Under the pieces are notes generated by a model that did not search any database, was not told the DNA's origin, and was given only the letters and a program-made list of their open reading frames with translations. 64,000 bases of DNA from Bacillota bacterium (GTDB lineage: Bacteria; Bacillota; UBA994; UBA5500), in contig JAAYHE010000029.1 of NCBI GenBank assembly GCA_012735505.1, positions 1,988 through 65,987 of the forward strand, given 5' to 3'. Positions 8,586-37,317 of the stretch are shown here, in pieces (the first letter of the stretch is position 1; each line of letters opens with the position of its first letter). A program made the translations under genes and the position numbers.

Positions 8586-9638
8586 GTGCACGAACGACGG
8601 CAAAGTCACCGCTGGCTGACGATTTTATTGTTATTAGCACTTCTTTTATTGGTAGTATTGGTTTTAGCAGTGGCCATCGGCCGCGTCAGTATTCCAGCAG
8701 GAGAAGTTGTGGATATTATCCTCAGCCGCGTACGCGCGTTAATTACTTTTCAACCAGCCCCTATGAACACCTCCAACGAAATCATTGTTTGGAACTTACG
8801 CTTACCCCGAGCGCTATTAGCTGCAGCTGTGGGAGCTTGCCTTGCCTTAGCTGGAGGAATGATGCAAGGTCTCTTGCGTAACCCGATGGCCGATCCTTAC
8901 GTGCTCGGTGTTTCTGCCGGCGCCTCTGTCGGAGGGGCTCTGGCATTTATTATCACAGGGACGTGGGGTTGGCGTTTTGGTGTTGCGTTAACACCGATCC
9001 TAGCCTTCTTCGGAGCCATTGCTGCCGTCCTGATGGTCTATTCGTTAGCCAGAGTGGGGGGGCGTGTACCTATCATGAACTTGCTGCTGGCAGGCATCGC
9101 TCTCAATACAGTCTTGTCAGCAGTGCTTTCCCTACTGATTTATTTTACTAACAAAGAATTACAGGCCCTCATTTACTGGTTGATGGGCAGTTTTACGGGC
9201 CGCGGTTGGACACAAGTGGCGATTATTATTCCCCATTTGTTGCTAGGATTAGCGTTCTCAGTCTACCTAGCCAGAGACCTTAACGCACTTAGCATGGGTG
9301 AAGACGCAGCTGCGACCCTAGGGGTCGACGTGGAAAAAACTAAACACCTGTTGCTTCTTGCCTCAACTGCGCTGACAGCGGGAGCAGTATCTGTGAGTGG
9401 CATTATAGGTTTTGTTGGTTTATTAGTGCCTCACATTAGTCGTTTGTTGTTCGGACCAGACCACCGTCTGCTTTTGCCGGCGTCAGCTCTGTTGGGTGGG
9501 ATTTTCTTAGTTGGCGCTGACTTATTAGCACGTACCTTAATCACTACTGGCGAGTTACCTGTGGGTATTATCACCTCTCTTTGCGGAGGGCCCTTTTTCC
9601 TTTATCTGTTGCGACGTAACGAAGCGCGCCGTTCCTAG
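8586..9638 (+). CDS. FecCD/BtuC-family ABC transporter permease (iron-siderophore or cobalamin type)
   Basis: It is a 10-TM FecCD-family protein (VLGVSAGASVGGALAFII, LLAGIALNTVLSA). A GTG start at 8586 is preferred for spacing to the GGAGG RBS. The ORF track starts at TTG 8568. Confidence 0.8.
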   Translation: MHERRQSHRWLTILLLLALLLLVVLVLAVAIGRVSIPAGEVVDIILSRVRALITFQPAPMNTSNEIIVWNLRLPRALLAAAVGACLALAGGMMQGLLRNPMADPYVLGVSAGASVGGALAFIITGTWGWRFGVALTPILAFFGAIAAVLMVYSLARVGGRVPIMNLLLAGIALNTVLSAVLSLLIYFTNKELQALIYWLMGSFTGRGWTQVAIIIPHLLLGLAFSVYLARDLNALSMGEDAAATLGVDVEKTKHLLLLASTALTAGAVSVSGIIGFVGLLVPHISRLLFGPDHRLLLPASALLGGIFLVGADLLARTLITTGELPVGIITSLCGGPFFLYLLRRNEARRS

Positions 9639-26530: not shown

Positions 26531-27133
26531 ATGTGGAATAGCAGTAAGCTGTCAGGCGGTCTGCGCGAGATAAGTACCAGGGCAGTTTGTGCCAAGGGAC
26601 AAAAGCGTTTTCGTCAGATAGATAGCATCGCAACTAGCCAACCGGCTGAAATGGTCTTAGGGCATCGGATCACCAGCCATTCCTTTACAGCAAGGCCCAA
26701 CGTCAATTCGGTAGAAATAAAAGGTAGGTATGATGTGCATATCTGGTATACATACGCCCAAGGCGCTTTGACGGCCGTGGAGAAAAAGACTGTGCACTAC
26801 ACTGAACATCTGCCTGTGGTAGAGCTAGAGGGCACACGTTTGGGCCAAAACGAAACTGTTGAAGTCGAAGTCATCAGGGATCCATCAGTGACCAATGTGC
26901 AAGTTAGGCGCGGCGCAGTTCAAGTCGAAGTGGAAGTGGAGTTTTATGTTGAAATTACCGGAGAGACGAAACTCTGGGTAAGAGTCTACGAGCCTCCCTT
27001 TGCCGACGACAAGAAAGATAAGAAAGCGTTTGACCTTGACCTTAGCAGCGATTACTTCGATGAAGATGACTTCGATGAAGATGGGGAATATGACGACGAA
27101 TTTGAGGATGAAGACCTAGATTTCGTTCCATAA
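26531..27133 (+). CDS. cotE: spore coat morphogenetic protein CotE with an acidic C-terminal tail
   Basis: Aligns with B. subtilis CotE: RAVCAKGQKRF / KAVVAKGRKF, VEIKGRYDVHIWYTYA / VEIEGYYDINVWYSYA, VEITGETKLWV / EVVGETKVVV. It has a poly-acidic tail DEDDFDEDGEYDDEFEDEDLDFVP. Confidence 0.75.
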   Translation: MWNSSKLSGGLREISTRAVCAKGQKRFRQIDSIATSQPAEMVLGHRITSHSFTARPNVNSVEIKGRYDVHIWYTYAQGALTAVEKKTVHYTEHLPVVELEGTRLGQNETVEVEVIRDPSVTNVQVRRGAVQVEVEVEFYVEITGETKLWVRVYEPPFADDKKDKKAFDLDLSSDYFDEDDFDEDGEYDDEFEDEDLDFVP

Positions 27134-27272
27134 TCCCTCCTCTGCTGCTGCAGATGCCGTAGGACTTTGCTCCAGAGGATGACTCTGGAGTTCTTTTTTT
27201 ATAGAGGGTCTTTAGCGCACCGCTTTTCGTACAACAACATATTTTGTAGGGGATGATTGGGGGTGCAGCAGT

Positions 27273-28625
27273 GTGATCAGAGTACAGCTGTACAAATTGC
27301 CACAAACTGGCGAAATACGATTGCCAGCAAACTTTATCAAAGGACGTAGAATCAATGCTAATAACATAATCGTATCTTTTGGTCAAAGACAGGTGGAAGC
27401 TTCTCTAGAGTCCGATCCACACCCTAGTCCTCGCTTTAGGGTCGGACTAAGTTCCGACCTTATGTCTGAGCTAGGTCTAAGGTCCGGTGTCAGGCTGAGA
27501 GCATTTTGGGACGCTCGCAAGCAGCAATTTCGTTTGGGGCCTGTTGTCGCTATCATGGTCTGGCGTTATCGCAGGGTGTCGTCTGCTTGGTTGTTCGGGG
27601 CAGCAACCGACATGGCTCGCACTTTTGTGCGTTTAGCCCGGAGCAGGGGCGTAGTCGCTTATGCTTTTTCTCCTCGCGATATAGATTGGAATAGCAAAGG
27701 GGTTATCGGTTTTGTGCCCGCCGGCAGAGGTTGGCGTAGGGTAAGCCTACCTTTGCCTGATGTGGTTTATGACCGCATCCAGAGTCGGGCCTTAGACGCT
27801 ACTCGCCGCATGCAGAATGTTAAGCGACAACTGATGGCTCTAGAAGGTTTGCATTATTTTAACCCGTGTTTTCTAGATAAATGGGATACTTATCAGGCTT
27901 TAGTGAAAGACCCGATAGTTCAGCGCTACTTGCCTAGGACTGAAAAATTAACTTCCTTGGATCAATTGGGCCCTTGGTTGCGCACTTACCCGACGGTTTA
28001 TATTAAACCCTCACGCGGTTCCTTAGGTCTTGGCATCGTTAAAATATCCCGCATGGCAAGAGGCTTTCGCTACCAACGTATCCGCATGGGGGGAGGTAGT
28101 CAGGCTGGCTTGTGCAGTTCACTCCCTAAACTGGAGCGACGCCTGCGGAACATACTGCCCAAACGAACTATGATTATCCAGCAAGGCTTGCGTTTGGCCC
28201 GATACAAAGGCAGGCCTTACGACATTCGGGTCATGGTACAGAAAACGACCCGAGGCAATTGGGTGTGCACCAATATGATTGCCCGGGTAGCATCAGCCGG
28301 TAGCGCCGTTTCTAATGTAGCCGAAGGAGGGACGATGATTTCCGTGCGCCGAGCTATCCGTGGCTCGCTAAGGATCAATGTTGGATCAGCCGTGCGTCGT
28401 ATTCGCCGAGGGGCGAGACTGATCGCTAGAGCTGTTGAAGAACAATACGGGCAAGAGTTCGGAGAGTTCGGCATCGACATGGCCTTAGATAGGCGTGGCA
28501 GGGTTTGGCTGATTGAAGTAAATGCAAAGCCTGGTAGGCAGACCGACGAACCGGGAACGCCTCCTTCTATGCGGCGGGTTACTCGTTACGCCATAGCGAA
28601 AGCAGGGTTTAGCGAAAGGGGGTGA
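27273..28625 (+). CDS. YheC/YheD-family ATP-grasp enzyme with an N-terminal tandem swapped-hairpin (AbrB/MraZ-like) module
   Basis: ATP-grasp C-terminal motifs (GLRLARYKGRPYDIRVMV, SNVAEGG, IDMALDRRGRVWLIEVNAKPG). They are shared with 30173.., 31252.. and 32597... The N-terminal roughly 100 aa carry two AbrB-like hairpin repeats. Confidence 0.7.
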   Translation: MIRVQLYKLPQTGEIRLPANFIKGRRINANNIIVSFGQRQVEASLESDPHPSPRFRVGLSSDLMSELGLRSGVRLRAFWDARKQQFRLGPVVAIMVWRYRRVSSAWLFGAATDMARTFVRLARSRGVVAYAFSPRDIDWNSKGVIGFVPAGRGWRRVSLPLPDVVYDRIQSRALDATRRMQNVKRQLMALEGLHYFNPCFLDKWDTYQALVKDPIVQRYLPRTEKLTSLDQLGPWLRTYPTVYIKPSRGSLGLGIVKISRMARGFRYQRIRMGGGSQAGLCSSLPKLERRLRNILPKRTMIIQQGLRLARYKGRPYDIRVMVQKTTRGNWVCTNMIARVASAGSAVSNVAEGGTMISVRRAIRGSLRINVGSAVRRIRRGARLIARAVEEQYGQEFGEFGIDMALDRRGRVWLIEVNAKPGRQTDEPGTPPSMRRVTRYAIAKAGFSERG

Positions 28626-28629
28626 GCTA

Positions 28630-30042
28630 GTGGCGCGGAGCCTAGTTATTATGCCTTCTGAAACTAATCGGGCTATCTTAGCAGAGCTGTTGCCCGATGT
28701 AGTTGTCAGCCCCACCTATCAAACGGGAGCTTGGCGTTTCATCATTCGCTTCGGTGATGCAACAGGAAGTGATGACAACGCACTAGTTCTCAATCGGGCT
28801 AGTGCATTGGCCACACCCGATCTAACTGCTAAGGCTCAAGAACATTGGCGAGCCAGTTCCTTACGGTATCACAAGCCGGAAAACAGGGTTACTTTCTATA
28901 AAAGATACCGGGTGCAGGTTTTTGACTGTACCGCTATTTACATGCAAAGGGTTGAAATTGGCAGCCGCCGGGTACGTGTCATACGGCCGAACTTGTCTCG
29001 AGAAACACGGCGTGTAAGTGAACTGGCTTGGCGCGCCTTATATACAGCTGGTTTAGATATAGGTGCAGTAGATATTGGCCTCTCTAGTAGTGGCAAGTTA
29101 TATGTTCTGAGTATCAATCCGTGCCCTCGCTTTAATAGAGCCATTGGGGCAGCATATGCGCGGCACATAACAGCTTGGATGCAGCGGATGGAAGGTCGTG
29201 GAGCTGCTGGCCCCTTGCGATCTTTACTCAACCCTCAAGAAAATGAGTGCCCCCAATACCTGCTGGGGGCAGATCCCGAGTTTACCTTGCGTGACGCTCG
29301 CACGGGGCGCATGGTTTTTGCCTCGGATTATTTCCCGATGCAGGGAGTCATTGGTTGCGATGCTCGGCGCGTAAGGCTAGGCCGGTCCGGTTATCCTCTA
29401 GCCGAGGTAAGGCCTGCTCCAACCCAATGCCCCTTAGAGCTTTACGAAAGCATTCGCGATCTCCTATTGATGGCCCACCGCAAGGTTCCTCGCCGCTACA
29501 TCCAGTGGCGAGCTGGAACTTTACCATTCAGCCAACTGCCGGTTGGAGGACACATCCATTTTAGTATGTTACCTACTAACCATTTTTTACGAGCACTAGA
29601 TAATAGTTTAGCTGTTGTTTTCCTAATGCTAGAAAACCCTGGAGCGGCTCGCAGACGGCGCCGCAGTTATGGTTGGTTGGGTGACTATCGTCTCAAAAAG
29701 CATGGCGGATTTGAATATCGTGCTATCCCTAGTTGGCTAGTCAGTCCAGTATTTGCCCGCGGGGCTTTGTGTTTGGCCAAAGTTATAGGGTGTGACTGGC
29801 ATCGTTGGCGTTACGATTTTTTCCTCCGTCCTGAAGCCCAAGTTGCCTTTAAAAGAGCTGATCAAGATTACTTTCGAGTCGAATTAGCGAAAGTGCTTGT
29901 AGCTATTAGGTCGTTATCTAGTTATGTCAAATATTCCCAAGAAATCGAGGCGCTGTTGAATTACGTTGAGCAAGGACGGCGCTGGACTACAGCGACCGAC
30001 ATCAGACGCAGTTGGCGATTACGCGCTTCTAGTCGCACTTAG
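28630..30042 (+). CDS. fusion protein: truncated ATP-grasp C-terminal subdomain plus COOH-NH2 ligase-like (glutamine-synthetase-fold amidoligase) domain
   Basis: The N-terminal roughly 190 aa match only the C-terminal lobe of the neighbouring ATP-grasps (AVDIGLSSSGKLYVLSINPCP). The C-terminal roughly 270 aa have GADPEF...GGHIHFS motifs reminiscent of GCS2 / phiEco32-like COOH-NH2 ligases. Confidence 0.5.
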   Translation: MARSLVIMPSETNRAILAELLPDVVVSPTYQTGAWRFIIRFGDATGSDDNALVLNRASALATPDLTAKAQEHWRASSLRYHKPENRVTFYKRYRVQVFDCTAIYMQRVEIGSRRVRVIRPNLSRETRRVSELAWRALYTAGLDIGAVDIGLSSSGKLYVLSINPCPRFNRAIGAAYARHITAWMQRMEGRGAAGPLRSLLNPQENECPQYLLGADPEFTLRDARTGRMVFASDYFPMQGVIGCDARRVRLGRSGYPLAEVRPAPTQCPLELYESIRDLLLMAHRKVPRRYIQWRAGTLPFSQLPVGGHIHFSMLPTNHFLRALDNSLAVVFLMLENPGAARRRRRSYGWLGDYRLKKHGGFEYRAIPSWLVSPVFARGALCLAKVIGCDWHRWRYDFFLRPEAQVAFKRADQDYFRVELAKVLVAIRSLSSYVKYSQEIEALLNYVEQGRRWTTATDIRRSWRLRASSRT

Positions 30043-30045
30043 CGC

Positions 30046-30109
30046 GGGCACAAGGTTTTCGCGAAAACCATATATTGTACTACTATAGGAAACATCCTTC
30101 CTTGTGCCC
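30046..30109 (+). promoter_or_regulatory. nested inverted repeats between paralogs 2 and 3 (gggcacaagg...ccttgtgccc enclosing palindrome ggttttcgcgaaaacc)
   Basis: 10-bp perfect arms at 30046-30055 and 30100-30109, and a 16-bp perfect palindrome at 30054-30069. No U-tract follows. Confidence 0.3.
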
Positions 30110-30172
30110 ACGTGTGGCTGGGCTGTAATGAGACGGGTACACCAGAGGGAGAGGCAGTGGGGGTGGCTATAT

Positions 30173-31255
30173 ATGGTAAAGGGTAGAGACTTAGTAGGGG
30201 TGCTATCTATCCGCCGGCCTGGTCCGCGTCCTTTTGCAGAAGGTAGATTCTTTCGGGAATTGATGTGGGCAGGCCGGCAAGTTGGCATACGACTAATTAT
30301 ATTTAGCCCGTTGGACATCGACTGGGAGAGGGGTAGAGTCTTAGGTTTTGTTTATGTGCCCAGTAGGGGCTGGCGGTCCAGATATTATCCTGTTCCGCGC
30401 CTTATTTACGACCGTTTGTTTCCCAGCTCTGGTACCTGGGGGTTGTACTATAACCAAGTTATCCGCATGCGGCGTGTTTTTCGGGTAAGAATGCTGAACC
30501 GAGGTTTGCGTGGGAAATGGCAGATGTATCGCATTGTGAGAAGGTACGAGGATCTACGGCCCTATCTGCCCGAAACTCGCCTCGGCAGTTACCGCAACTT
30601 GTCTGTCATGTTAGCCAAATACAGTACCGTATTCGTTAAGCCTGTTTTTGGCAGTGGTGGCAAAGGCATTTGCCGCATCCAAAGGGGACGCGACGGTTAT
30701 TTGGTCGATAGGAGTGGCAGGCCGCGCATTCGCACGCACTCTCTATTAGGCGTCATCTATGCTTTAGGGGGCATAAATCGGCGTTATCTGATTCAGCAAG
30801 GCTTGAAGCTCAACTACTTAAACGGGAGAACTTTTGATGTTCGCAGCATCGTGCAAAGGAACGGTCAAGGCGAATGGCAGGTTTCCGGCAAAGCGATCCG
30901 AGCTGGTCGACGGGGCAGAATTACTTCCAATTTACATACGGGAGGCCGGGCCTACAACGTTTCTTCCGTATTGCAGCAGTATTTTCCTGATCGAGCTGAA
31001 GAGATTGAAAAAGAAATGGAAGCATTGGCAGTACGAGTGGCAGAGGTCATGAGTCAGCGTGCGGGTCCTCTATGCGACCTAGGACTAGATATGGGCGTAG
31101 ATGTTAATGGTAAAGTATGGTTGATAGAGGTTAACTCTAAGCCAGGGCGCACTGTCTTTCTGCGCATGGGCGATCGAGAAGGCCGGCGCCGGGTTGTGCA
31201 GACGTTAATGGAATATGCCCGCTATCAGATAGATCAACAGCGTCAGAGGAGGTGA
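30173..31255 (+). CDS. YheC/YheD-family ATP-grasp enzyme (no N-terminal extension)
   Basis: Motifs GLKLNYLNGRTFDVRSIV, GRITSNLHTGG, LDMGVDVNGKVWLIEVNSKPG. ATG at 30173 follows GGGGGTGG. The ORF track starts at 30104. Confidence 0.7.
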   Translation: MVKGRDLVGVLSIRRPGPRPFAEGRFFRELMWAGRQVGIRLIIFSPLDIDWERGRVLGFVYVPSRGWRSRYYPVPRLIYDRLFPSSGTWGLYYNQVIRMRRVFRVRMLNRGLRGKWQMYRIVRRYEDLRPYLPETRLGSYRNLSVMLAKYSTVFVKPVFGSGGKGICRIQRGRDGYLVDRSGRPRIRTHSLLGVIYALGGINRRYLIQQGLKLNYLNGRTFDVRSIVQRNGQGEWQVSGKAIRAGRRGRITSNLHTGGRAYNVSSVLQQYFPDRAEEIEKEMEALAVRVAEVMSQRAGPLCDLGLDMGVDVNGKVWLIEVNSKPGRTVFLRMGDREGRRRVVQTLMEYARYQIDQQRQRR

Positions 31256-32619
31256 TACCGGATATGGTGGAAACAGGTTATGCGCGGGTGCTTGGTTATG
31301 CTAGCGAATCAGCTTCGTGTATTTTGCCCCGCAGTTTGCTCGCCCGTCTCGGCTGGCGCCAAGGCGACATAGTCAATATAGCTTTCGGCCGTGCCAGCAG
31401 GCCCGTTAAGTTAAGGGCAGGCGATGACGATGTTTGGCGGGTTTCTACCGACTTGTTGCGCCATATAGGTCTTCGTCCCAGGAAATGGCTCTATTGCGTT
31501 GACACTGGGCGCAAGTTGATACGCTTTGGTCCATTAATCGGGATTATGACAACTTGGCATGTTACTCCGTATTTTCGTTCTGTGATGCGAGCAGCTGCCC
31601 GCAAAGGTATGATGGCGGTTGTTTTTAGACCCTATGACTTGCGCCTTGGTGGCAGGCAAATGAGTGCCTGGGCTCTGGTTGGCGGCGGAATGCAGAGAAT
31701 ACGGGTCCCTTGGCCCGATGTGGTTTATAACCGCATCCCCAACCGGGGGGGAGAATTGTTAGGCAGCACTAGAGCCTGCAGACGATTATTAGCACGCGCT
31801 TCAATCCCTGTTTTTAATAGCAAATTTTTTCATAAATGGCGCATCCATCGCCTCCTGCGGAGAGATGAACAGGCTAGGCAATATTTACCTGAGACACAAC
31901 CCATGGTTAGTATGAAACAAGCACGTCAGTTTTTGCACAAATACCCGATGATTTATCTCAAACCCAATGGCGGTAGTAAGGGACAAGGAATTGTACGCAT
32001 TAGGCGTGGGCAAGGGTACTCGGTCTCTTTCCGTCGGGGTCACCATAATTTCCAGCGTACATGTACCAGTTGGCTTGAGGCAGGAAATTTAGCCAGAAGA
32101 GGTATGCATAGACGGACTTACGTTGTGCAGGAAGGTGTGCCCTTAGCTAGGTACCATGGGCGTCCTTTCGACGTGCGGGTAACGTTATACAAGAATGGAA
32201 ATGGGGAATGGATTCCCTGCGGTCCAGCAGCAAAAATAGCCGGGCGGGGTAGCATCACAACCCATGTGGCTAACGGAGGACGAGTAGTTCCATTAGATCG
32301 AGTGCTCCGCCACGTCTTCGGCAGCGAGGCAGAGACAATGCGAGTGCGGATTGAAACGGCTTCTATAGACTTGGCTCGCGCGGTAGAACGGGTAACCGGG
32401 CTCGAATTGGGTGAGCTGGGATTAGACATCGGTCTTACTACCCAAGGCCGTGTTGCGATGTTTGAAGCCAATAGCAAGCCTGGCCGTGCCATCTTTGCGG
32501 CTGCTTGGAATCGTGACGATAGGCGGAAATCGTTATCGTACCTATGTGATTATGCCGCTTCTTTAGCAGGGTTTACGAATAGCGGGGTGAAGACTGATGC
32601 CAAAACTGCTAACTGTTAG
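31252..32619 (+). CDS. YheC/YheD-family ATP-grasp enzyme with an N-terminal tandem swapped-hairpin module
   Basis: Motifs GVPLARYHGRPFDVRVTL, GSITTHVANGG, LDIGLTTQGRVAMFEANSKPG. The N-terminus has CILPRSLLARLGWRQGDIVNIAF and WRVSTDLLRHIGLRPRKWLYCVDTGRKLIRF. The start is ambiguous (GTG 31252 or ATG 31264). Confidence 0.7.
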   Translation: MIPDMVETGYARVLGYASESASCILPRSLLARLGWRQGDIVNIAFGRASRPVKLRAGDDDVWRVSTDLLRHIGLRPRKWLYCVDTGRKLIRFGPLIGIMTTWHVTPYFRSVMRAAARKGMMAVVFRPYDLRLGGRQMSAWALVGGGMQRIRVPWPDVVYNRIPNRGGELLGSTRACRRLLARASIPVFNSKFFHKWRIHRLLRRDEQARQYLPETQPMVSMKQARQFLHKYPMIYLKPNGGSKGQGIVRIRRGQGYSVSFRRGHHNFQRTCTSWLEAGNLARRGMHRRTYVVQEGVPLARYHGRPFDVRVTLYKNGNGEWIPCGPAAKIAGRGSITTHVANGGRVVPLDRVLRHVFGSEAETMRVRIETASIDLARAVERVTGLELGELGLDIGLTTQGRVAMFEANSKPGRAIFAAAWNRDDRRKSLSYLCDYAASLAGFTNSGVKTDAKTANC

Positions 32620-33895
32620 GGTGTCATTCGCTGGCACAAGTAAGATTAACCTCCATCTGCCCGGATGCAAAAATGAATCTGTATCCCTCAGTATGGGATC
32701 TTTTAACGCCCTTGCACAAATGCAACCGGCAGACACAGCCGAGTTGGTCCTACATCGCACAGCTGCCCGTCAGATGGGGTTAAGGGATAAAGAAAAAATA
32801 GCTTATTACCGGCAGGGTAAAACCGTTAAGACAGGGCCTGTAGTAGGAATCTTAACCGCAGGCCAAGGTGTAGTTCCGGGGAACCGCGAGATGTTTCGAT
32901 TCGTGCAAAGGGCCTGCCAGCAGGCGGGCCTGGTGGCTTATGTTTTTACCCCAGCTGATGTAGATTGGACGCGCAACGTGGTCAGGGGATATCAATATCG
33001 TCAGGGACGCTGGCAATCTCGCCGTTTTCCTTTGCCCGACGTCGTCTATAATCGTGTCCCCAATCGGCAATTGGAGAGGGGTAGCGCCGTACGGTTGGTT
33101 AAACAGCGCCTGCGTTCTCGCGGCATTCCTTATTATAACTCCCATTATCTTAATAAATATGACTTGTATCGCATCTTGAGAGACACCGAAGTAGAGCCCC
33201 ACTTACCTTGGACCAGATCAGTAAGCAAAACTAGCGATATCGCAGGCGCCTTAAGACGGTTTGGCAGTGTTTACCTAAAGCCTAAACATGCTTTTGCTGG
33301 CAAAGGTATTTTGCGCGTCGATCTGCGGCCGTCTGGCTGGACTCTAAGATATCGTATGGGTCGTAATAGGGAAGTTAATGGCAGCACTCTAGCCGCTTTG
33401 TGGCCTGTACTTCATCGCCATATGGGCGGAAAAGGCTACGTGGTGCAGCAAGCTATACCTTTAGCACGCTATCAGGGGAGAGCTTTCGATGTGCGGTTGC
33501 TGGCACAGAAAAATGAGGCAGGTTACTGGCAAGTAACTGGCATGGGAATTCGCGTTGCTGGTAAGGGTAGCATCACAACACATGTTCCCAATGGTGGCTT
33601 TATCGCATCTGCTGATAAGGTCATTCCCGAGGTGTTCGGTTCACAAGCAGCTGAGGTTAGAGAAAATGTCGTGCGCTTAGCCCTTATGGTGGCACCCATC
33701 GTAGAAAAAAGTAGTCGGGGGCTATTTGGCGAGATGTCCATGGACATTGGTATTGATAGACAAGGGTGGCCTTGGTTCTTTGAAGCCAACGCCAAACCCA
33801 TGCGTTTTGACGAATCAGGTATCAGGAGGCGAGGGTTGGCGACCTTGGTCGCATATGCGAAATATCTCGCAGGAGTGCCCGAGGGAGGAGGGTAG
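32597..33895 (+). CDS. YheC/YheD-family ATP-grasp enzyme (single N-terminal hairpin-like motif)
   Basis: Motifs AIPLARYQGRAFDVRLLA, GSITTHVPNGG, MDIGIDRQGWPWFFEANAKP. It overlaps the previous gene by 23 nt. Confidence 0.7.
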   Translation: MPKLLTVRVSFAGTSKINLHLPGCKNESVSLSMGSFNALAQMQPADTAELVLHRTAARQMGLRDKEKIAYYRQGKTVKTGPVVGILTAGQGVVPGNREMFRFVQRACQQAGLVAYVFTPADVDWTRNVVRGYQYRQGRWQSRRFPLPDVVYNRVPNRQLERGSAVRLVKQRLRSRGIPYYNSHYLNKYDLYRILRDTEVEPHLPWTRSVSKTSDIAGALRRFGSVYLKPKHAFAGKGILRVDLRPSGWTLRYRMGRNREVNGSTLAALWPVLHRHMGGKGYVVQQAIPLARYQGRAFDVRLLAQKNEAGYWQVTGMGIRVAGKGSITTHVPNGGFIASADKVIPEVFGSQAAEVRENVVRLALMVAPIVEKSSRGLFGEMSMDIGIDRQGWPWFFEANAKPMRFDESGIRRRGLATLVAYAKYLAGVPEGGG

Positions 33896-33901
33896 CAAGG
33901 C

Positions 33902-34372
33902 ATGGTAAGGTACCAGCGCATCACTGAGCTTGATTTGGCGCGGCACAGGAGAGCTATGTTGCGCCTGATACGAGCCCACGGTGATAGGCACATCACACGT
34001 AAAGCCTACCAGAATTTGCGTACCATGCGGCCCGCGAGGTTAGCGCGAGAGGGGAATGTGATCTGGACAGCTTGGGATGGCGATCTCTTAGTAGGTGTGA
34101 TTATTTGTGAAAGTTATGGTAAGCGTACTTCTTTTTCAGTTGTGCGCAAGAGTCACCGGTCGCGCGGAATTGCTAAGGCACTTTTACTGCGTGCAGTAAA
34201 CTCTATGGGTAGGTTTTATGCCGAGGTAGCGTCTGATAACCTGGCTAGCATGAAAGTGCTATTTGGCATGGGTATGGTAGCCTACGATGCTTTCGTGCGC
34301 TATGGCAAAATCATCTTACGTGTACGTAATGGCTTCAACGTTTCATCGCTTGAGGAAGAAGACCGTGGGTGA
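33902..34372 (+). CDS. GNAT-fold acetyltransferase-like protein
   Basis: 156 aa with an acyl-CoA-binding-like segment VVRKSHRSRGIAKALL. It follows the last ATP-grasp gene by 6 nt and has a GGGAGGAGGG RBS. Confidence 0.45.
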   Translation: MVRYQRITELDLARHRRAMLRLIRAHGDRHITRKAYQNLRTMRPARLAREGNVIWTAWDGDLLVGVIICESYGKRTSFSVVRKSHRSRGIAKALLLRAVNSMGRFYAEVASDNLASMKVLFGMGMVAYDAFVRYGKIILRVRNGFNVSSLEEEDRG

Positions 34373-34535
34373 AATATTAATCAGGCCGCGACCTGTTGGG
34401 AGAGTCTCCGACAGGTTGTGGCCTGATTGTTTAAGTGAAGGTCTCTTTTGCTTCCTGGCTCAGGCAAGCATAAAGTTAAAGTCCGCCCCATAGAAATGAA
34501 ACGATGGAGAATACTGCGGGGAAGGAGCGATTGGC

Positions 34536-35888
34536 GTGAACATATGGCGTGGGGCAGACATCGCTCAAATATTTGGTGTAGAAGATGAGGGGTTAGTGCA
34601 AAATGGAGTGTTTTGTTTAAGCACTCCTTTCGGGCCGGCCGCACCTTCCGTCTATCGGGGTGATGTACGTTTCCTACAGTGGTTAGGGGCTGAGCTGCCC
34701 AGCATTACCACTAGGCTGGGGCGCCTAGGATTAAGTCGACTGTTACCTACGCCTGCAGGCCAATATTATGCCAATCTAGGTGGTGAATATGTGCTGCTGG
34801 CAACACTAGAGACGGGGCCGATTTGCGATGTCCATAACGCCTTTGAATTATTTACCGTCTCTGTTGGCCTAGCCCATGTCCATGCACAAGATGTGGGGGG
34901 AATAACGAGCAGTTCTCCTGATTGGTCAACTTATTATCAGGCTCAACGCGATAAGTTAGAACAAATAAGGCCGCCAGATCTATCTAGGCGAGCGCGGGCT
35001 GCCTGGGCTTTGTTGGAGGAGAGTTGGCAGCTTTGTATCGACGAAGCAGTGAGTCTGCTGGCAGATATACCTCGCGAAGCACGTGCGACTTGTTTAACCT
35101 TGGGGTTGAAAAGCTTCAGTGATTTTATTTATTTACCTGATTTACACCGAGTGCATTATAACCCGATTGCTAATTGCCGCCTGGATTCACCTGCCGTTGA
35201 CATCGCGCGTCTGTTGCTATCTGCTTCTGGCGATGTGCGTGTGATACATAACATGTTGTTATCGTACCAGCGGGTGAGGGAAATACCACCGGTGGAAGGG
35301 CAAGAAATATTGGCGCACCTTTGGTTCCCCCATGAAATAGATCTGCAAGTATTAGGAGAGCAAGGAGCAAATACGCTAAGCGTGCAGCGGCATTATAATC
35401 TTTTGCGAGATAAGATCGCGATGATAGCCGAAGTGGAAGATTTACTCTCACCCTTTGAACAAGGGGAAAATAATGAAGAGGAAACGGAGGTGCTGTCGAT
35501 GGCTAAAAGACAATCGAGGGAAGCGAGGACGAACCCGGTGACCTTAACTACGGCAGGAGAGGAAGACAATATTTTAACGCAAGAGCAAGTAGAATTGGTG
35601 GAACCGGCTGGGGACGGCGAGCCAGTAAATGTTAGTCAACCGCAAGAGGTGCCTGAACCCGCGCCAGAAGTGGCAGAGGAGGAAACAGTGCCACGTATCA
35701 ACCTAGAGGCGAAAAGAGAGGTAAAACCTATAGTCTGGGGTCCTTTCCCTAAACCTTTGGGAGCCGCCGATGACGAGGATGACGAGGAAGATAACATTGC
35801 AGTTGAACAAGAACCATTATCTGAGGAAGTAAGCTCGGAAGAACCAGATGCCTCAATAGAAACGGAGCCTCAACCAGATATTTGTTAA
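34536..35888 (+). CDS. CotS/kinase-fold-like spore coat protein candidate with a roughly 150-aa poly-acidic C-terminal tail
   Basis: The N-terminal roughly 300 aa are globular with a degenerate phosphotransferase-like segment (IYLPDLHRVHYNPIANC...VDIARLL). The C-terminus is low-complexity, rich in E/D/P (DDEDDEEDNIAVEQEPLSEEVSSEEPD...). GTG start after AAGGAG. Confidence 0.35.
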   Translation: MNIWRGADIAQIFGVEDEGLVQNGVFCLSTPFGPAAPSVYRGDVRFLQWLGAELPSITTRLGRLGLSRLLPTPAGQYYANLGGEYVLLATLETGPICDVHNAFELFTVSVGLAHVHAQDVGGITSSSPDWSTYYQAQRDKLEQIRPPDLSRRARAAWALLEESWQLCIDEAVSLLADIPREARATCLTLGLKSFSDFIYLPDLHRVHYNPIANCRLDSPAVDIARLLLSASGDVRVIHNMLLSYQRVREIPPVEGQEILAHLWFPHEIDLQVLGEQGANTLSVQRHYNLLRDKIAMIAEVEDLLSPFEQGENNEEETEVLSMAKRQSREARTNPVTLTTAGEEDNILTQEQVELVEPAGDGEPVNVSQPQEVPEPAPEVAEEETVPRINLEAKREVKPIVWGPFPKPLGAADDEDDEEDNIAVEQEPLSEEVSSEEPDASIETEPQPDIC

Positions 35889-36644: not shown

Positions 36645-36885
36645 GCCCATTTTTAGGCTTACGCAGGTGGTGCATCCGTACGCTTGCACTGCTTGAACAG
36701 CCTTAGTTAGGCCTCGAGGCTTACCTGCTGCTGCCCCTTTAGGGCATTAGTCACATAAGTCAGTAGAATTTCTGAAAAAGCAGTGGGGAAAGAAGGAGTT
36801 GTTATGGCTGAAGCGAATATAATGTGGTGAAAAGTGGTGTATAGTGGGGATAAGTGGTGTAGTACCCAGCAAAGGGGGGAGGCAA

Positions 36886-37317
36886 GTGCTCCTAGGCGAG
36901 TATCAACATAGCGTTGATGAAAAGGGACGACTGACTATTCCCTCGCGTTTGCGAGAAGGTTTAGGCGAACGATTCGTGGTTACTAAGGGATTAGACAGTT
37001 GTCTCTTTGTCTACCCCCTAGCAGAGTGGAATGCTCTAGAAACTAAGTTAAGGGCTTTGCCCCTAACACGTCCCGAGGCCCGTTCTGTCGTTCGTTTGTT
37101 CTTCTCTGGCGCCATCGAGTGTGAGCTTGATCGCCAAGGTCGCATTTTATTGCCTCCCAATTTGCGTAGCCATGCTCGACTCGTAAAAGATGCATACATT
37201 ATTGGCGTATCTAATCGAGTAGAAATTTGGGATAAGGAAACATGGGAAGAATACAGTCAACAAGCTGCGGCTTCTTTCGAGCAAGCTGCTGCGCATCTGG
37301 ATGATCTAGGCATCTAG
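36886..37317 (+). CDS. mraZ: transcriptional regulator MraZ
   Basis: A GTG start (VLLGEYQHSVDEKGRLTIP) lies 6 nt after AAAGGGGGGAGG. It carries the tandem DxxGR swapped-hairpin repeats typical of MraZ. Confidence 0.85.
   Translation: MLLGEYQHSVDEKGRLTIPSRLREGLGERFVVTKGLDSCLFVYPLAEWNALETKLRALPLTRPEARSVVRLFFSGAIECELDRQGRILLPPNLRSHARLVKDAYIIGVSNRVEIWDKETWEEYSQQAAASFEQAAAHLDDLGI

What the first reader, a model, noticed from the sequence alone, without database searches (positions are those of the whole stretch)
27273..27575. ATP-grasp paralogs 1 and 4 (and partly 5) carry N-terminal tandem swapped-hairpin (AbrB/MazE/MraZ-like) modules
Seen: paralog 4 residues ~20-100 read CILPRSLLARLGWRQGDIVNIAF...WRVSTDLLRHIGLRPRKWLYCVDTGRKLIRF. 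Paralog 1 reads IRLPANFIKGRRINANNIIVSF...RFRVGLSSDLMSELGLRSGVRLRAFWDARKQQFRL. Paralog 5 retains one copy (LVLHRTAARQMGLRDKEKIAYYRQGKTVK). These follow the hhh.P..hRc.hGh..GD.h.h.....h.h pattern of the AbrB/SpoVT/MazE/MraZ looped-hinge swapped-hairpin barrel. Paralog 3 lacks the module. Inference: a DNA- or peptide-binding beta-barrel fused to an ATP-grasp is unusual and might serve as the substrate-recognition (protein/peptide docking) domain. This would explain why several paralogs with different N-termini coexist.
Basis: inference. Interest (0 to 1): 0.65.

Follow-up and report, generated by a model that had tools for sequence, protein, structure and literature searches.

The report
Double-psi barrel on spore-coat ligases
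The ~89-residue N-terminal extension on two of the spore-coat ATP-grasp ligases (a decayed copy sits on a third) is real and conserved, but it is predicted to fold as one double-psi beta-barrel like the partner-binding N-domain of Cdc48/VAT, not as AbrB/MazE swapped hairpins, and it is a standard, position-specific part of these ligase arrays in many spore-formers.

Summary
The quoted peptides are all present. Paralogs 1 and 4 each carry an 89-residue module directly in front of the YheC/D ATP-grasp body, and paralog 3 has none. Paralog 5 has an 80-residue degenerate copy that lacks the first helix. The module is an internal duplication (half 1 against half 2: hhalign 93%).

The fusion is not unusual within this family. 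In 74 of 85 arrays the order is long(p1)–short(p3)–long(p4)–p5-type, across Paenibacillus, Brevibacillus, Cohnella, Thermoactinomycetaceae and Peptococcaceae. In 1.84 billion representative proteins the full module was seen with only one recognised domain, a YheC/D ATP-grasp. No Pfam model covers it.

Its function is inferred, not shown. My best guess is a rigidly attached protein-docking domain. Self-assembly is the main rival.

The parts
27273..27539 (+). Paralog 1 N-terminal module (aa 1-89): one double-psi beta-barrel, with elements in the order b1 b2 a1 b3 | b4 b5 a2 b6 b7
27540..28625 (+). Paralog 1 catalytic body: an unassigned stretch (aa 90 to about 190), taken to be the pre-ATP-grasp domain, followed by the YheC/D ATP-grasp. 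It starts at the conserved Gly-Pro junction with no linker.
   Evidence: PF14398 at residues 193-440, E 3.4e-71. P90 is invariant and G89 is at least 90% conserved in alignment A3. The pre-ATP-grasp label is an inference from the layout of ATP-grasp enzymes and was not tested.
30104..31255 (+). Paralog 3: short YheC/D ATP-grasp with no module
   Evidence: PF14398 E 1.6e-75. No module HMM hit. Short-type ORFs in 85 loci have a median of only 21 codons between the upstream stop and the core.
31264..31530 (+). Paralog 4 N-terminal module (aa 1-89 counted from the ATG at 31264; a GTG at 31252 is an alternative start): double-psi beta-barrel
31531..32619 (+). Paralog 4 catalytic body (YheC/D ATP-grasp)
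   Evidence: PF14398 E 6e-77.
32597..32836 (+). Paralog 5 N-terminal 80 aa: degenerate copy of the module, with helix 1 deleted
   Evidence: hhalign 89% over 78 columns with an 8-aa gap at helix 1, p5 excluded from the profile. The p5-type extension is unrecognisable in other genera (hhalign 40%).
26531..27133 (+). CotE homologue with an acidic C-terminal tail, directly upstream. Context and candidate partner.
   Evidence: Pfam CotE 4.9e-33. Net charge -18. Adjacent to the array also in L001-L007 and L048.
28630..30042 (+).
   Evidence: PF14395 E 6.7e-87. Same position in the orthologous arrays.
33902..34372 (+). GNAT acetyltransferase closing the ligase array
   Evidence: Pfam Acetyltransf_1 5.2e-6. 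Conserved position.
34536..35888 (+). CotS-like protein with a long acidic tail. Context and candidate partner.
   Evidence: NCBIfam spore_CotS, weak at 1.2e-4. Net charge -44. Conserved position.

Best explanation
The extension is a single domain of about 89 residues with a double-psi beta-barrel (DPBB) fold. It is built from an internal duplication of a strand-strand-helix-strand unit. It joins the body of the 'long' YheC/D-type ATP-grasp ligases without any linker, through a conserved Gly-Pro.

It defines two of four ancient paralog types, p1-type and p4-type. In the operon these alternate with module-less short types (p3-type). The p5-type carries a decaying version.

Shown here: the predicted fold, the duplication, the homology of the p1 and p4 modules, the exclusive association with YheC/D ligases and the positional conservation.

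Inferred: the barrel has no catalytic role. It acts as a rigid protein/peptide-docking surface, as the DPBB N-domains of Cdc48/p97, VAT, PEX1 and NSF do for substrates and adaptors. It would hold the very basic ligase on its partner, so each long/short pair has one targeting domain. The partner would be the acceptor protein in the coat, for example an acidic-tailed protein such as CotE or the CotS-like neighbour, or a coat scaffold.
For: - Weak Pfam and PDB sequence hits cluster on PEX1-N, UFD1_N1 and CDC48_N.
- Duplication: hhalign of the two halves gives 93%.
- Exclusivity: 201 hits in 1.84e9 representatives. Of 146 examined, 97 have the module plus the ligase core, 94 of them directly adjacent, and 30 are short module-only proteins. 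Multi-unit fusions and a PP2C fusion still carry a YheC/D domain downstream.
- Positional conservation: long(p1)-short(p3)-long(p4)-p5 in 74 of 85 loci.
- Rigid junction: G89 and P90 are conserved and there is no linker.
- The module evolves about twice as fast as the core (35-50% against 62-77% identity in close orthologues). That is expected for a surface tracking fast-evolving coat partners.
- Charge complementarity: ligases pI 10.3-11.5; CotE net -18 and CotS-like net -44, both with acidic tails.
- A natural fusion of module + ligase + SPOCS coat-assembly domain exists (P0302).
Against:
- The conserved positions of the module (Leu-Pro in strand 2, Gly42, Leu..Leu.Pro after helix 2, Arg-x-Gly89) look structural, not like a binding site.
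- The module is no more basic than the rest of the enzyme.
- Most arrays (Paenibacillus, Brevibacillus, Cohnella) keep the long/short pattern without cotE or the COOH-NH2 ligase within 8 kb. CotE therefore cannot be the general partner.
- In B. subtilis two-hybrid tests YheD bound only itself, not SpoIVA, CotE or other morphogenetic proteins (PMC7911427).
- Cdc48-type N-domains bind partners largely in the cleft between the DPBB and a second beta-clam subdomain, which is absent here (my recollection of those structures).
Confidence: 0.5

Rival explanations
1. Assembly domain. The DPBB mediates self-association or association between paralogs. Long ligases would polymerise, or pair with the short ligase encoded next to them, to form the shell- or ring-like ligase assemblies seen on the forespore. 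The barrel would not recognise the substrate.
For: - YheD gave one of the strongest self-interaction signals in the B. subtilis two-hybrid screen and bound no other tested protein (PMC7911427).
- YheD forms rings and then a shell around the forespore (PMC7725329).
- The strict long/short alternation and the overlapping, tightly packed genes fit obligate pairs.
Against: - ATP-grasp enzymes commonly dimerise through their catalytic bodies, so YheD self-interaction need not involve the barrel.
- I could not confirm here that B. subtilis YheD carries the module.
- The barrel's fast divergence is not obviously expected for a homotypic interface.
Confidence: 0.27
2. The extension is a tandem AbrB/MazE/MraZ-type swapped-hairpin barrel that binds DNA or peptide.
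For: - Motif-level similarity (LP..L...LGL..GD.V.h.F).
- MazE_antitoxin hits in 2 of 68 members at E 0.0057 or weaker.
- AbrB PDB chains at E about 0.85.
- One AbrB-type protein at E 1.5e-4.
- An in-register hhalign at 37.6%.
Against: - Each half has strand-strand-helix-strand. It lacks the fourth strand that AbrB units have, seen as an 11-residue insertion on the AbrB side.
- MraZ of the same window is unrelated by hhalign (1.6%) and by HMM (E 6.6).
- No Pfam AbrB-clan model reaches its threshold.
Confidence: 0.04
3. Non-protein ligand or purely structural role. The barrel could bind glycan, such as cortex peptidoglycan, as RlpA/expansin-type DPBBs do, or a small molecule. Alternatively it merely buttresses or gates the domain that follows it.
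For: [quoted passage not shown]
- The rigid Gly-Pro junction fits a structural buttress.
- The p5-type copy decays without loss of the enzyme.
Against: - The glycan-binding DPBBs score clearly lower than the Cdc48/PEX1/VAT group.
- The ligases have no signal peptide and sit on the mother-cell side, away from the cortex (inference).
- Conservation of the module in two paralog types across distant genera argues for a specific function.
Confidence: 0.12

Closest known systems
N-terminal double-psi beta-barrel (Nn subdomain) of Cdc48/p97, archaeal VAT, PEX1/PEX6 and NSF/Sec18 (Pfam CDC48_N, PEX-2N; PDB 6hd3, 7dbo, 1cz5, 1wlf, 1qdn)
   Different: No sequence hit reaches a Pfam threshold. The beta-clam (Nc) subdomain that forms the adaptor-binding cleft is absent. 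The barrel is fused to an ATP-grasp ligase, not an AAA+ ring. The module was detected only in Bacillota spore-formers, apart from one probably contaminated MAG.
Swapped-hairpin barrels: AbrB, SpoVT, MazE, MraZ (Pfam clan AbrB)
   Same: The same beta-alpha-beta building block and a GD-box-like turn. Weak in-register sequence similarity. The two folds are regarded as evolutionary relatives, the 'cradle-loop barrels' (references listed in PMC4739770).
B. subtilis YheD / YheC (endospore coat-associated ATP-grasp proteins, Pfam PF14398)
   Same: The same catalytic family. Several p4-type long proteins of Paenibacillus are named 'endospore coat-associated protein YheD' by their sources. By my recollection YheD is 453 aa and YheC 363 aa, which would match the long/short dichotomy.
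   Different: The B. subtilis sequences were not retrieved here, so the presence of the module in YheD is not verified. B. subtilis has one pair. This window has a four-ligase array plus a COOH-NH2 ligase, a GNAT, CotE and a CotS-like gene.
N-terminal domain of archaeal AMP phosphorylase (PDB 4ga5)
   Different: Unrelated enzyme body. That domain's reported role in multimerisation is from my memory and was not checked. No sequence similarity.
Accessory targeting domains of protein-modifying ATP-grasp and TTL-type ligases (RimK, TTLL glutamylases, LysX/LysW)
   Same: The body of these proteins gives weak hits to RimK, TTL and GSH-S models. The enzymes are strongly basic and sit next to acidic-tailed proteins. 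This fits modification of acidic tails, the role that Iyer et al. 2009 predicted for this family (my recollection; the paper was not available here).
   Different: None of those enzymes is known to me to use a DPBB. No substrate or product is known for any YheC/D protein.

Membership tests
Swapped-hairpin beta-barrel (AbrB/SpoVT/MazE/MraZ) | Match to a Pfam AbrB-clan model (MazE_antitoxin PF04014, MraZ PF02381) above its gathering score | tested here: not met
   No hit for the p1, p4 or p5 N-termini even at E<=10. 2 of 68 family members hit MazE_antitoxin, best E 0.0057, which I take to be below threshold. The control MraZ in the window scores 1.1e-45.
Swapped-hairpin beta-barrel (AbrB/SpoVT/MazE/MraZ) | Each unit is b1-b2-helix-b3-b4, and two units interleave their hairpins | tested here: not met
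Swapped-hairpin beta-barrel (AbrB/SpoVT/MazE/MraZ) | DNA binding through the barrel | not testable with these tools
   Needs EMSA or ChIP. Nothing in the context (a spore-coat enzyme operon) suggests it.
Double-psi beta-barrel fold (DPBB) | Six-stranded barrel made of two strand-strand-helix-strand halves with pseudo-twofold symmetry | tested here: met
Double-psi beta-barrel fold (DPBB) | Two crossing psi-loops | tested here: inconclusive
Cdc48/VAT-type N-domain (Pfam CDC48_N + CDC48_2) | Significant match to CDC48_N, and a following beta-clam subdomain | tested here: not met
   CDC48_N is hit by only 4 of 68 members, best E 0.0066. The barrel is followed at once by the ligase body. It works like, and looks like, the Nn subdomain, but it is not a member of that family.
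YheC/D-like ATP-grasp ligases (Pfam PF14398) | Match to PF14398 above the gathering score over the whole model | tested here: met
   p1 3.4e-71, p3 1.6e-75, p4 6e-77, p5 4e-68, each covering the 255-position model almost end to end. 'Paralog 2' does not match; it is PF14395.
YheC/D-like ATP-grasp ligases (Pfam PF14398) | ATP-dependent amide-bond formation on a defined substrate | not testable with these tools
   No substrate is known for any member. This needs biochemistry.

The most novel reading that the evidence does not exclude
The four conserved paralog types form an ordered, multi-subunit 'assembly line'. The two DPBB-bearing ligases would use their barrels, Cdc48-N-like, to clamp a specific acidic-tailed coat protein (CotE, the CotS-like protein or another). 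The barrel-less partners, the COOH-NH2 ligase and the GNAT would then successively build and cap a defined peptide-like tag on it. That would be a bacterial counterpart of tubulin-tail modification, in which a double-psi barrel is the substrate reader.
Probability: 0.15. Interest if true: 0.7.

Novelty: new member of a known kind. Interest (0 to 1): 0.4.

Why it matters
YheC/D ligases are widely conserved spore-coat enzymes with no known substrate. This work assigns a confident fold to their unannotated N-terminal 89 residues. It also shows that the domain marks two of four ancient, positionally fixed paralog types.

That gives experimenters a concrete handle. The isolated barrel is a small, probably soluble bait for finding the partner or substrate. 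Barrel deletions should separate targeting from catalysis.

The case also corrects a tempting mis-assignment. An AbrB-like motif does not imply an AbrB-like fold or DNA binding.

It would add what seems to be an undescribed family to the double-psi barrels, and an example of such a barrel fused to an ATP-grasp enzyme. No Pfam model covers it, and my literature search found no paper linking a double-psi barrel to YheC/D.

Tried and rejected
- Pfam and NCBIfam on the isolated N-termini found nothing significant.
- The module profile against PDB sequences gave only weak hits: PEX1-N 0.026, AbrB 0.85.
- A Foldseek search of afdb50, meant to find B. subtilis YheD and other architectures, could not run because the library was unavailable.
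- Three attempts to tie the module to B. subtilis YheD all failed to return the B. subtilis protein:
  - a cluster look-up of proteins of about 453 aa;
  - a genome scan, which returned Paenibacillaceae, Brevibacillus and similar genera but no Bacillus subtilis;
  - a homologue search seeded from a 'Neobacillus' locus, which turned out to be Paenibacillus-like.
- Iyer et al. 2009 (PMC3268129), the comparative-genomics paper on these ligases, is not held.
- A literature search for 'double-psi' plus 'ATP-grasp' found nothing on YheC/D.
- I tested whether the extension of about 75 aa on p5-type proteins in Brevibacillus and Thermoactinomycetaceae is a diverged barrel. hhalign gave 40%, which is inconclusive.
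- I tested whether the SPOCS region of the P0302 fusion resembles the window's CotE. There was no significant BLASTP similarity.
- I tested whether the N-terminal 210 aa of the COOH-NH2 ligase is a degenerate ATP-grasp. Only a 20-residue motif matched, which is inconclusive.
- I rejected the idea that the barrel supplies the positive charge for acidic tails. Its charge density equals that of the rest of the enzyme.

Full report
**What is at the locus**

The finding lies in a tightly packed plus-strand operon. Pfam and NCBIfam identify the genes as follows.

| Gene | Coordinates | Identification |
|---|---|---|
| CotE homologue | 26531-27133 | Pfam CotE 4.9e-33 |
| p1 | 27273-28625, 450 aa | YheC/D-like ATP-grasp ligase, PF14398 3.4e-71 |
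| p3 | 30104-31255, 383 aa | YheC/D ligase |
| p4 | 31252/31264-32619, about 451 aa | YheC/D ligase |
| p5 | 32597-33895, 432 aa | YheC/D ligase |
| GNAT | 33902-34372 | acetyltransferase |
| CotS-like protein | 34536-35888 | weak NCBIfam spore_CotS match |

A protein identical to p4 is on record from an uncultured Bacillota MAG.

**Check of the observation**

- In p1 and p4 the PF14398 match starts near residue 190. Alignments of 216 homologues show an N-terminal block of about 89 residues. It ends at a nearly invariant Gly-Pro that leads straight into the body of the enzyme.
- p3 has no such block.
- The block is a genuine internal repeat. When the family alignment A1 (68 sequences) is cut in two, the halves align in register, strand-strand-helix-strand on strand-strand-helix-strand (hhalign local probability 93%, pairwise E 2.4e-7).
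- The p1-type and p4-type blocks are homologous (hhalign 97.7-99%).
- p5's 80-residue N-terminus aligns with the whole block. An 8-residue deletion removes the first helix (89% with p5 left out of the profile). It is therefore a degenerate whole module, not 'one retained copy'.
- In the whole 64-kb window the module HMM hits only p4, p1 and p5. All three are rows of the alignment behind that HMM, so the E-values are partly circular. The informative result is that no other ORF matches.

**What the module is**

No Pfam or NCBIfam model covers it. Weak sequence hits nevertheless point in a consistent direction.
- The A1 profile finds the PEX1 N-domain best among PDB sequences (E 0.026) and AbrB chains only at E about 0.85.
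- Member-by-member Pfam scans hit UFD1_N1 (5 members), CDC48_N (4), PEX-2N (2) and MazE_antitoxin (2, best 0.0057).

AlphaFold2 with the family alignments gives confident models.

| Model | pLDDT | pTM |
|---|---|---|
| p4 module | 96.0 | 0.83 |
| p1 module | 88.3 | 0.75 |

Both show the same order of elements: b1 b2 a1 b3 | b4 b5 a2 b6 b7.

- CDC48A-N: 9.3 / 8.8.
- AMP phosphorylase N-domain: 8.9 / 8.0.
- Computationally designed symmetric DPBBs: 8.6-8.7 / 8.4-8.5.
- VAT: 8.0 / 8.3.
- PEX1-N: 7.9 / 8.7.
- Further down: RNA-polymerase DPBBs, UFD1, NSF-N, aspartate decarboxylase and expansins.

Foldseek agrees, with VCP-like ATPase and p97 N-domains at TM 0.65-0.70. No AbrB, MazE, SpoVT or MraZ structure appears in the listed matches. 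The lowest Z shown is 5.4 for p4 and 4.6 for p1.

The window supplies its own control. Its MraZ gene (36823-37314) is a true tandem swapped-hairpin protein, recognised by Pfam at 1.1e-45. It is unrelated to the module by HMM (E 6.6) and by hhalign (1.6%).

An AbrB-type protein that surfaced in the large scan (P0359) aligns in register with both halves at 37.6% probability. The alignment needs an 11-residue insertion on the AbrB side, where AbrB has its extra strand.

The literature treats swapped-hairpin and double-psi barrels as relatives (references in PMC4739770). The topology predicted here, however, is the double-psi barrel. I could not inspect coordinates, so the psi-loops themselves are inferred from the superpositions.

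**How widespread it is**

A profile search of 1.84 billion representative proteins found only 201 hits at E<=1e-3. I examined 146 of the listed hits.
- 97 have the module together with a YheC/D core, and in 94 of them the two are directly adjacent.
- 30 are short module-only proteins, probably gene fragments from short contigs.
- 18 are partial or repeat matches. These include LapA-type adhesin repeats and the one AbrB-type protein.

Longer proteins are concatenations of two or three module+ligase units, a PP2C fusion, and one module+ligase+SPOCS fusion.

Orthologous operons in related MAGs and in a Peptococcaceae MAG keep the same gene order: CotE, long, COOH-NH2 ligase, short, long, p5-type, GNAT, CotS-like.

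A scan of one genome per species returned 80 loci. The order long(p1-type), short(p3-type), long(p4-type), p5-type, sometimes with a further p3-type short ligase, holds in 74 of 85 loci. These span Paenibacillus, Cohnella, Brevibacillus, Thermoactinomycetaceae and uncultured Bacillota.

Short types truly lack room for the module, with a median of 21 codons from the upstream stop to the core. In most of these genera cotE and the COOH-NH2 ligase are not within 8 kb.

The p5-type N-terminus is unstable.
- It is recognisable in the window and in L007.
- It gives only a weak partial match in the Peptococcaceae array.
- In Brevibacillus it is about 75 residues long and unrecognisable (hhalign 40%).

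The refutation condition 'absent or unconserved in orthologous arrays' is therefore clearly not met for p1 and p4. The claim that the fusion is unusual does not hold within this family.

**How it probably works**

What follows is inference. These observations bear on function.
- The barrel is joined to the next domain without a linker, through a conserved Gly-Pro. That suggests a fixed orientation.
- It diverges about twice as fast as the catalytic body: 35-50% against 62-77% identity in close orthologues.
- Its conserved residues look structural.
- All five ligases and the GNAT are extremely basic (pI 10.3-11.5). The flanking CotE and CotS-like proteins have long acidic tails, with net charges of -18 and -44. 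The barrel is no more basic than the rest of the enzyme.

The best structural relatives are the N-domains through which Cdc48/p97, VAT, PEX1 and NSF hold substrates and adaptors. I therefore favour a non-catalytic docking domain that gives each long/short ligase pair one targeting surface for a coat protein (confidence about 0.5).

The main rival is an assembly role (about 0.27).
- B. subtilis YheD showed one of the strongest self-interaction signals in a two-hybrid screen and no binding to SpoIVA, CotE or other tested proteins (PMC7911427).
- YheD forms rings and then a shell on the forespore (PMC7725329).
- The AMP phosphorylase DPBB is, by my recollection, a multimerisation domain.

I could not retrieve B. 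subtilis YheD to confirm that it carries the module. Its length of 453 aa against 363 aa for YheC is from memory and would fit. Some Paenibacillus p4-type proteins are labelled YheD by their sources.

A glycan-binding or purely structural role cannot be excluded (about 0.12). The AbrB-like DNA/peptide-binding swapped-hairpin reading is essentially refuted (about 0.04).

**Comparison with what is known, and verdict**

The catalytic family, its spore-coat association and, by my recollection of Iyer et al. 2009 and the Pfam descriptions, its linkage with CotE and COOH-NH2 ligases are known. That paper was not available to me.

I found no Pfam model for the N-terminal barrel, and no paper linking YheC/D with a double-psi barrel. 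The other YheC/YheD papers I opened did not discuss the N-terminus.

The module works like, and looks like, the Nn subdomain of Cdc48-type N-domains, but it fails membership. It has no significant CDC48_N match and no beta-clam partner.

I classify it as a new member of a known kind: a family of double-psi barrels specific to long YheC/D ligases.

It is a useful, moderately interesting structural annotation, and the conserved alternating array is a neat observation. It is not a surprising new mechanism. Interest 0.4.

Noticed in passing
window 27273-33895; loci L001-L084: The ligase array is an ancient, positionally fixed set of four paralog types: p1-type long, p3-type short, p4-type long, then p5-type, often followed by an extra p3-type short ligase. 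The order holds in 74 of 85 loci from distant genera. The long/short alternation suggests that long and short ligases work as pairs.
   Followed up: partly
Only a 20-residue stretch (VDIGLSSSGKLYVLSINPCP) resembles the ATP-grasp 'lDiGid..G.vw.fEvNakP' motif. It may be a remnant ATP-grasp.
   Followed up: partly
window 27169-27262: A terminator-like hairpin with a T-run lies directly after the cotE stop (27169-27200). It is followed by an AC-N17-CATA motif that resembles a sigma-K-type promoter, ahead of the p1 GTG and a GGGGGTG ribosome-binding site (read by eye). The ligase array may therefore be transcribed separately from cotE.
   Followed up: no
window 26531-35888: There is an extreme charge split within the operon. 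The five ligases and the GNAT have pI 10.3-11.5 (net +15 to +49). CotE (net -18) and the CotS-like protein (net -44) end in long Asp/Glu-rich tails, and the acidic CotE tail is conserved in L001 and L003.
   Followed up: partly
proteins P0302, P0231, P0220, P0313: Natural fusions exist: module + YheC/D + C-terminal SipL/SPOCS coat-assembly domain (715 aa); an N-terminal PP2C phosphatase with the module and a YheC/D domain near the C-terminus (2196 aa); and two or three module+ligase units in one chain (900-1382 aa). The SPOCS fusion links these ligases to coat-morphogenetic proteins, but it shows no direct similarity to the window's CotE.
   Followed up: partly
L008-L022, L028, L050, L066, L072 (ORFs starting near locus position 9300): p5-type ligases of Brevibacillus and Thermoactinomycetaceae carry a conserved N-terminal extension of about 75 aa (consensus MPQ.RSGWLTILPSGRWYLQ...LGPF..KK....GLP..Q.GRIRTRIRWK..ND.L.IGP). 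The module HMMs do not recognise it, and hhalign to the module gives only 40%. It is either a heavily decayed barrel or something else.
   Followed up: partly
L019 and L070: There are likely assembly or label problems in public records. L019 is labelled 'Candidatus Bathyarchaeia archaeon' MAG, yet it carries a Brevibacillus-type array whose p5-type N-terminus is nearly identical to that of Brevibacillus migulae L017 (one substitution in the residues printed). The long ligase of L070 'Neobacillus mesonae MER 107' is 90% identical to that of Paenibacillus shunpengii.
   Followed up: no
window 36823-37314: An MraZ gene (Pfam 1.1e-45, two repeats) lies about 1 kb downstream of the operon, ahead of what is probably the division/cell-wall cluster (as in L001). 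It served as an in-window control for a real tandem swapped-hairpin protein.
   Followed up: yes
proteins P0228, P0230, P0233, P0250, P0266 and others: Giant repeat proteins give multiple partial matches to module profile positions about 28-61 at E 1e-15 to 1e-8. P0266 is built of LapA-domain repeats. This is probably a spurious beta-hairpin resemblance amplified by repetition.
   Followed up: no
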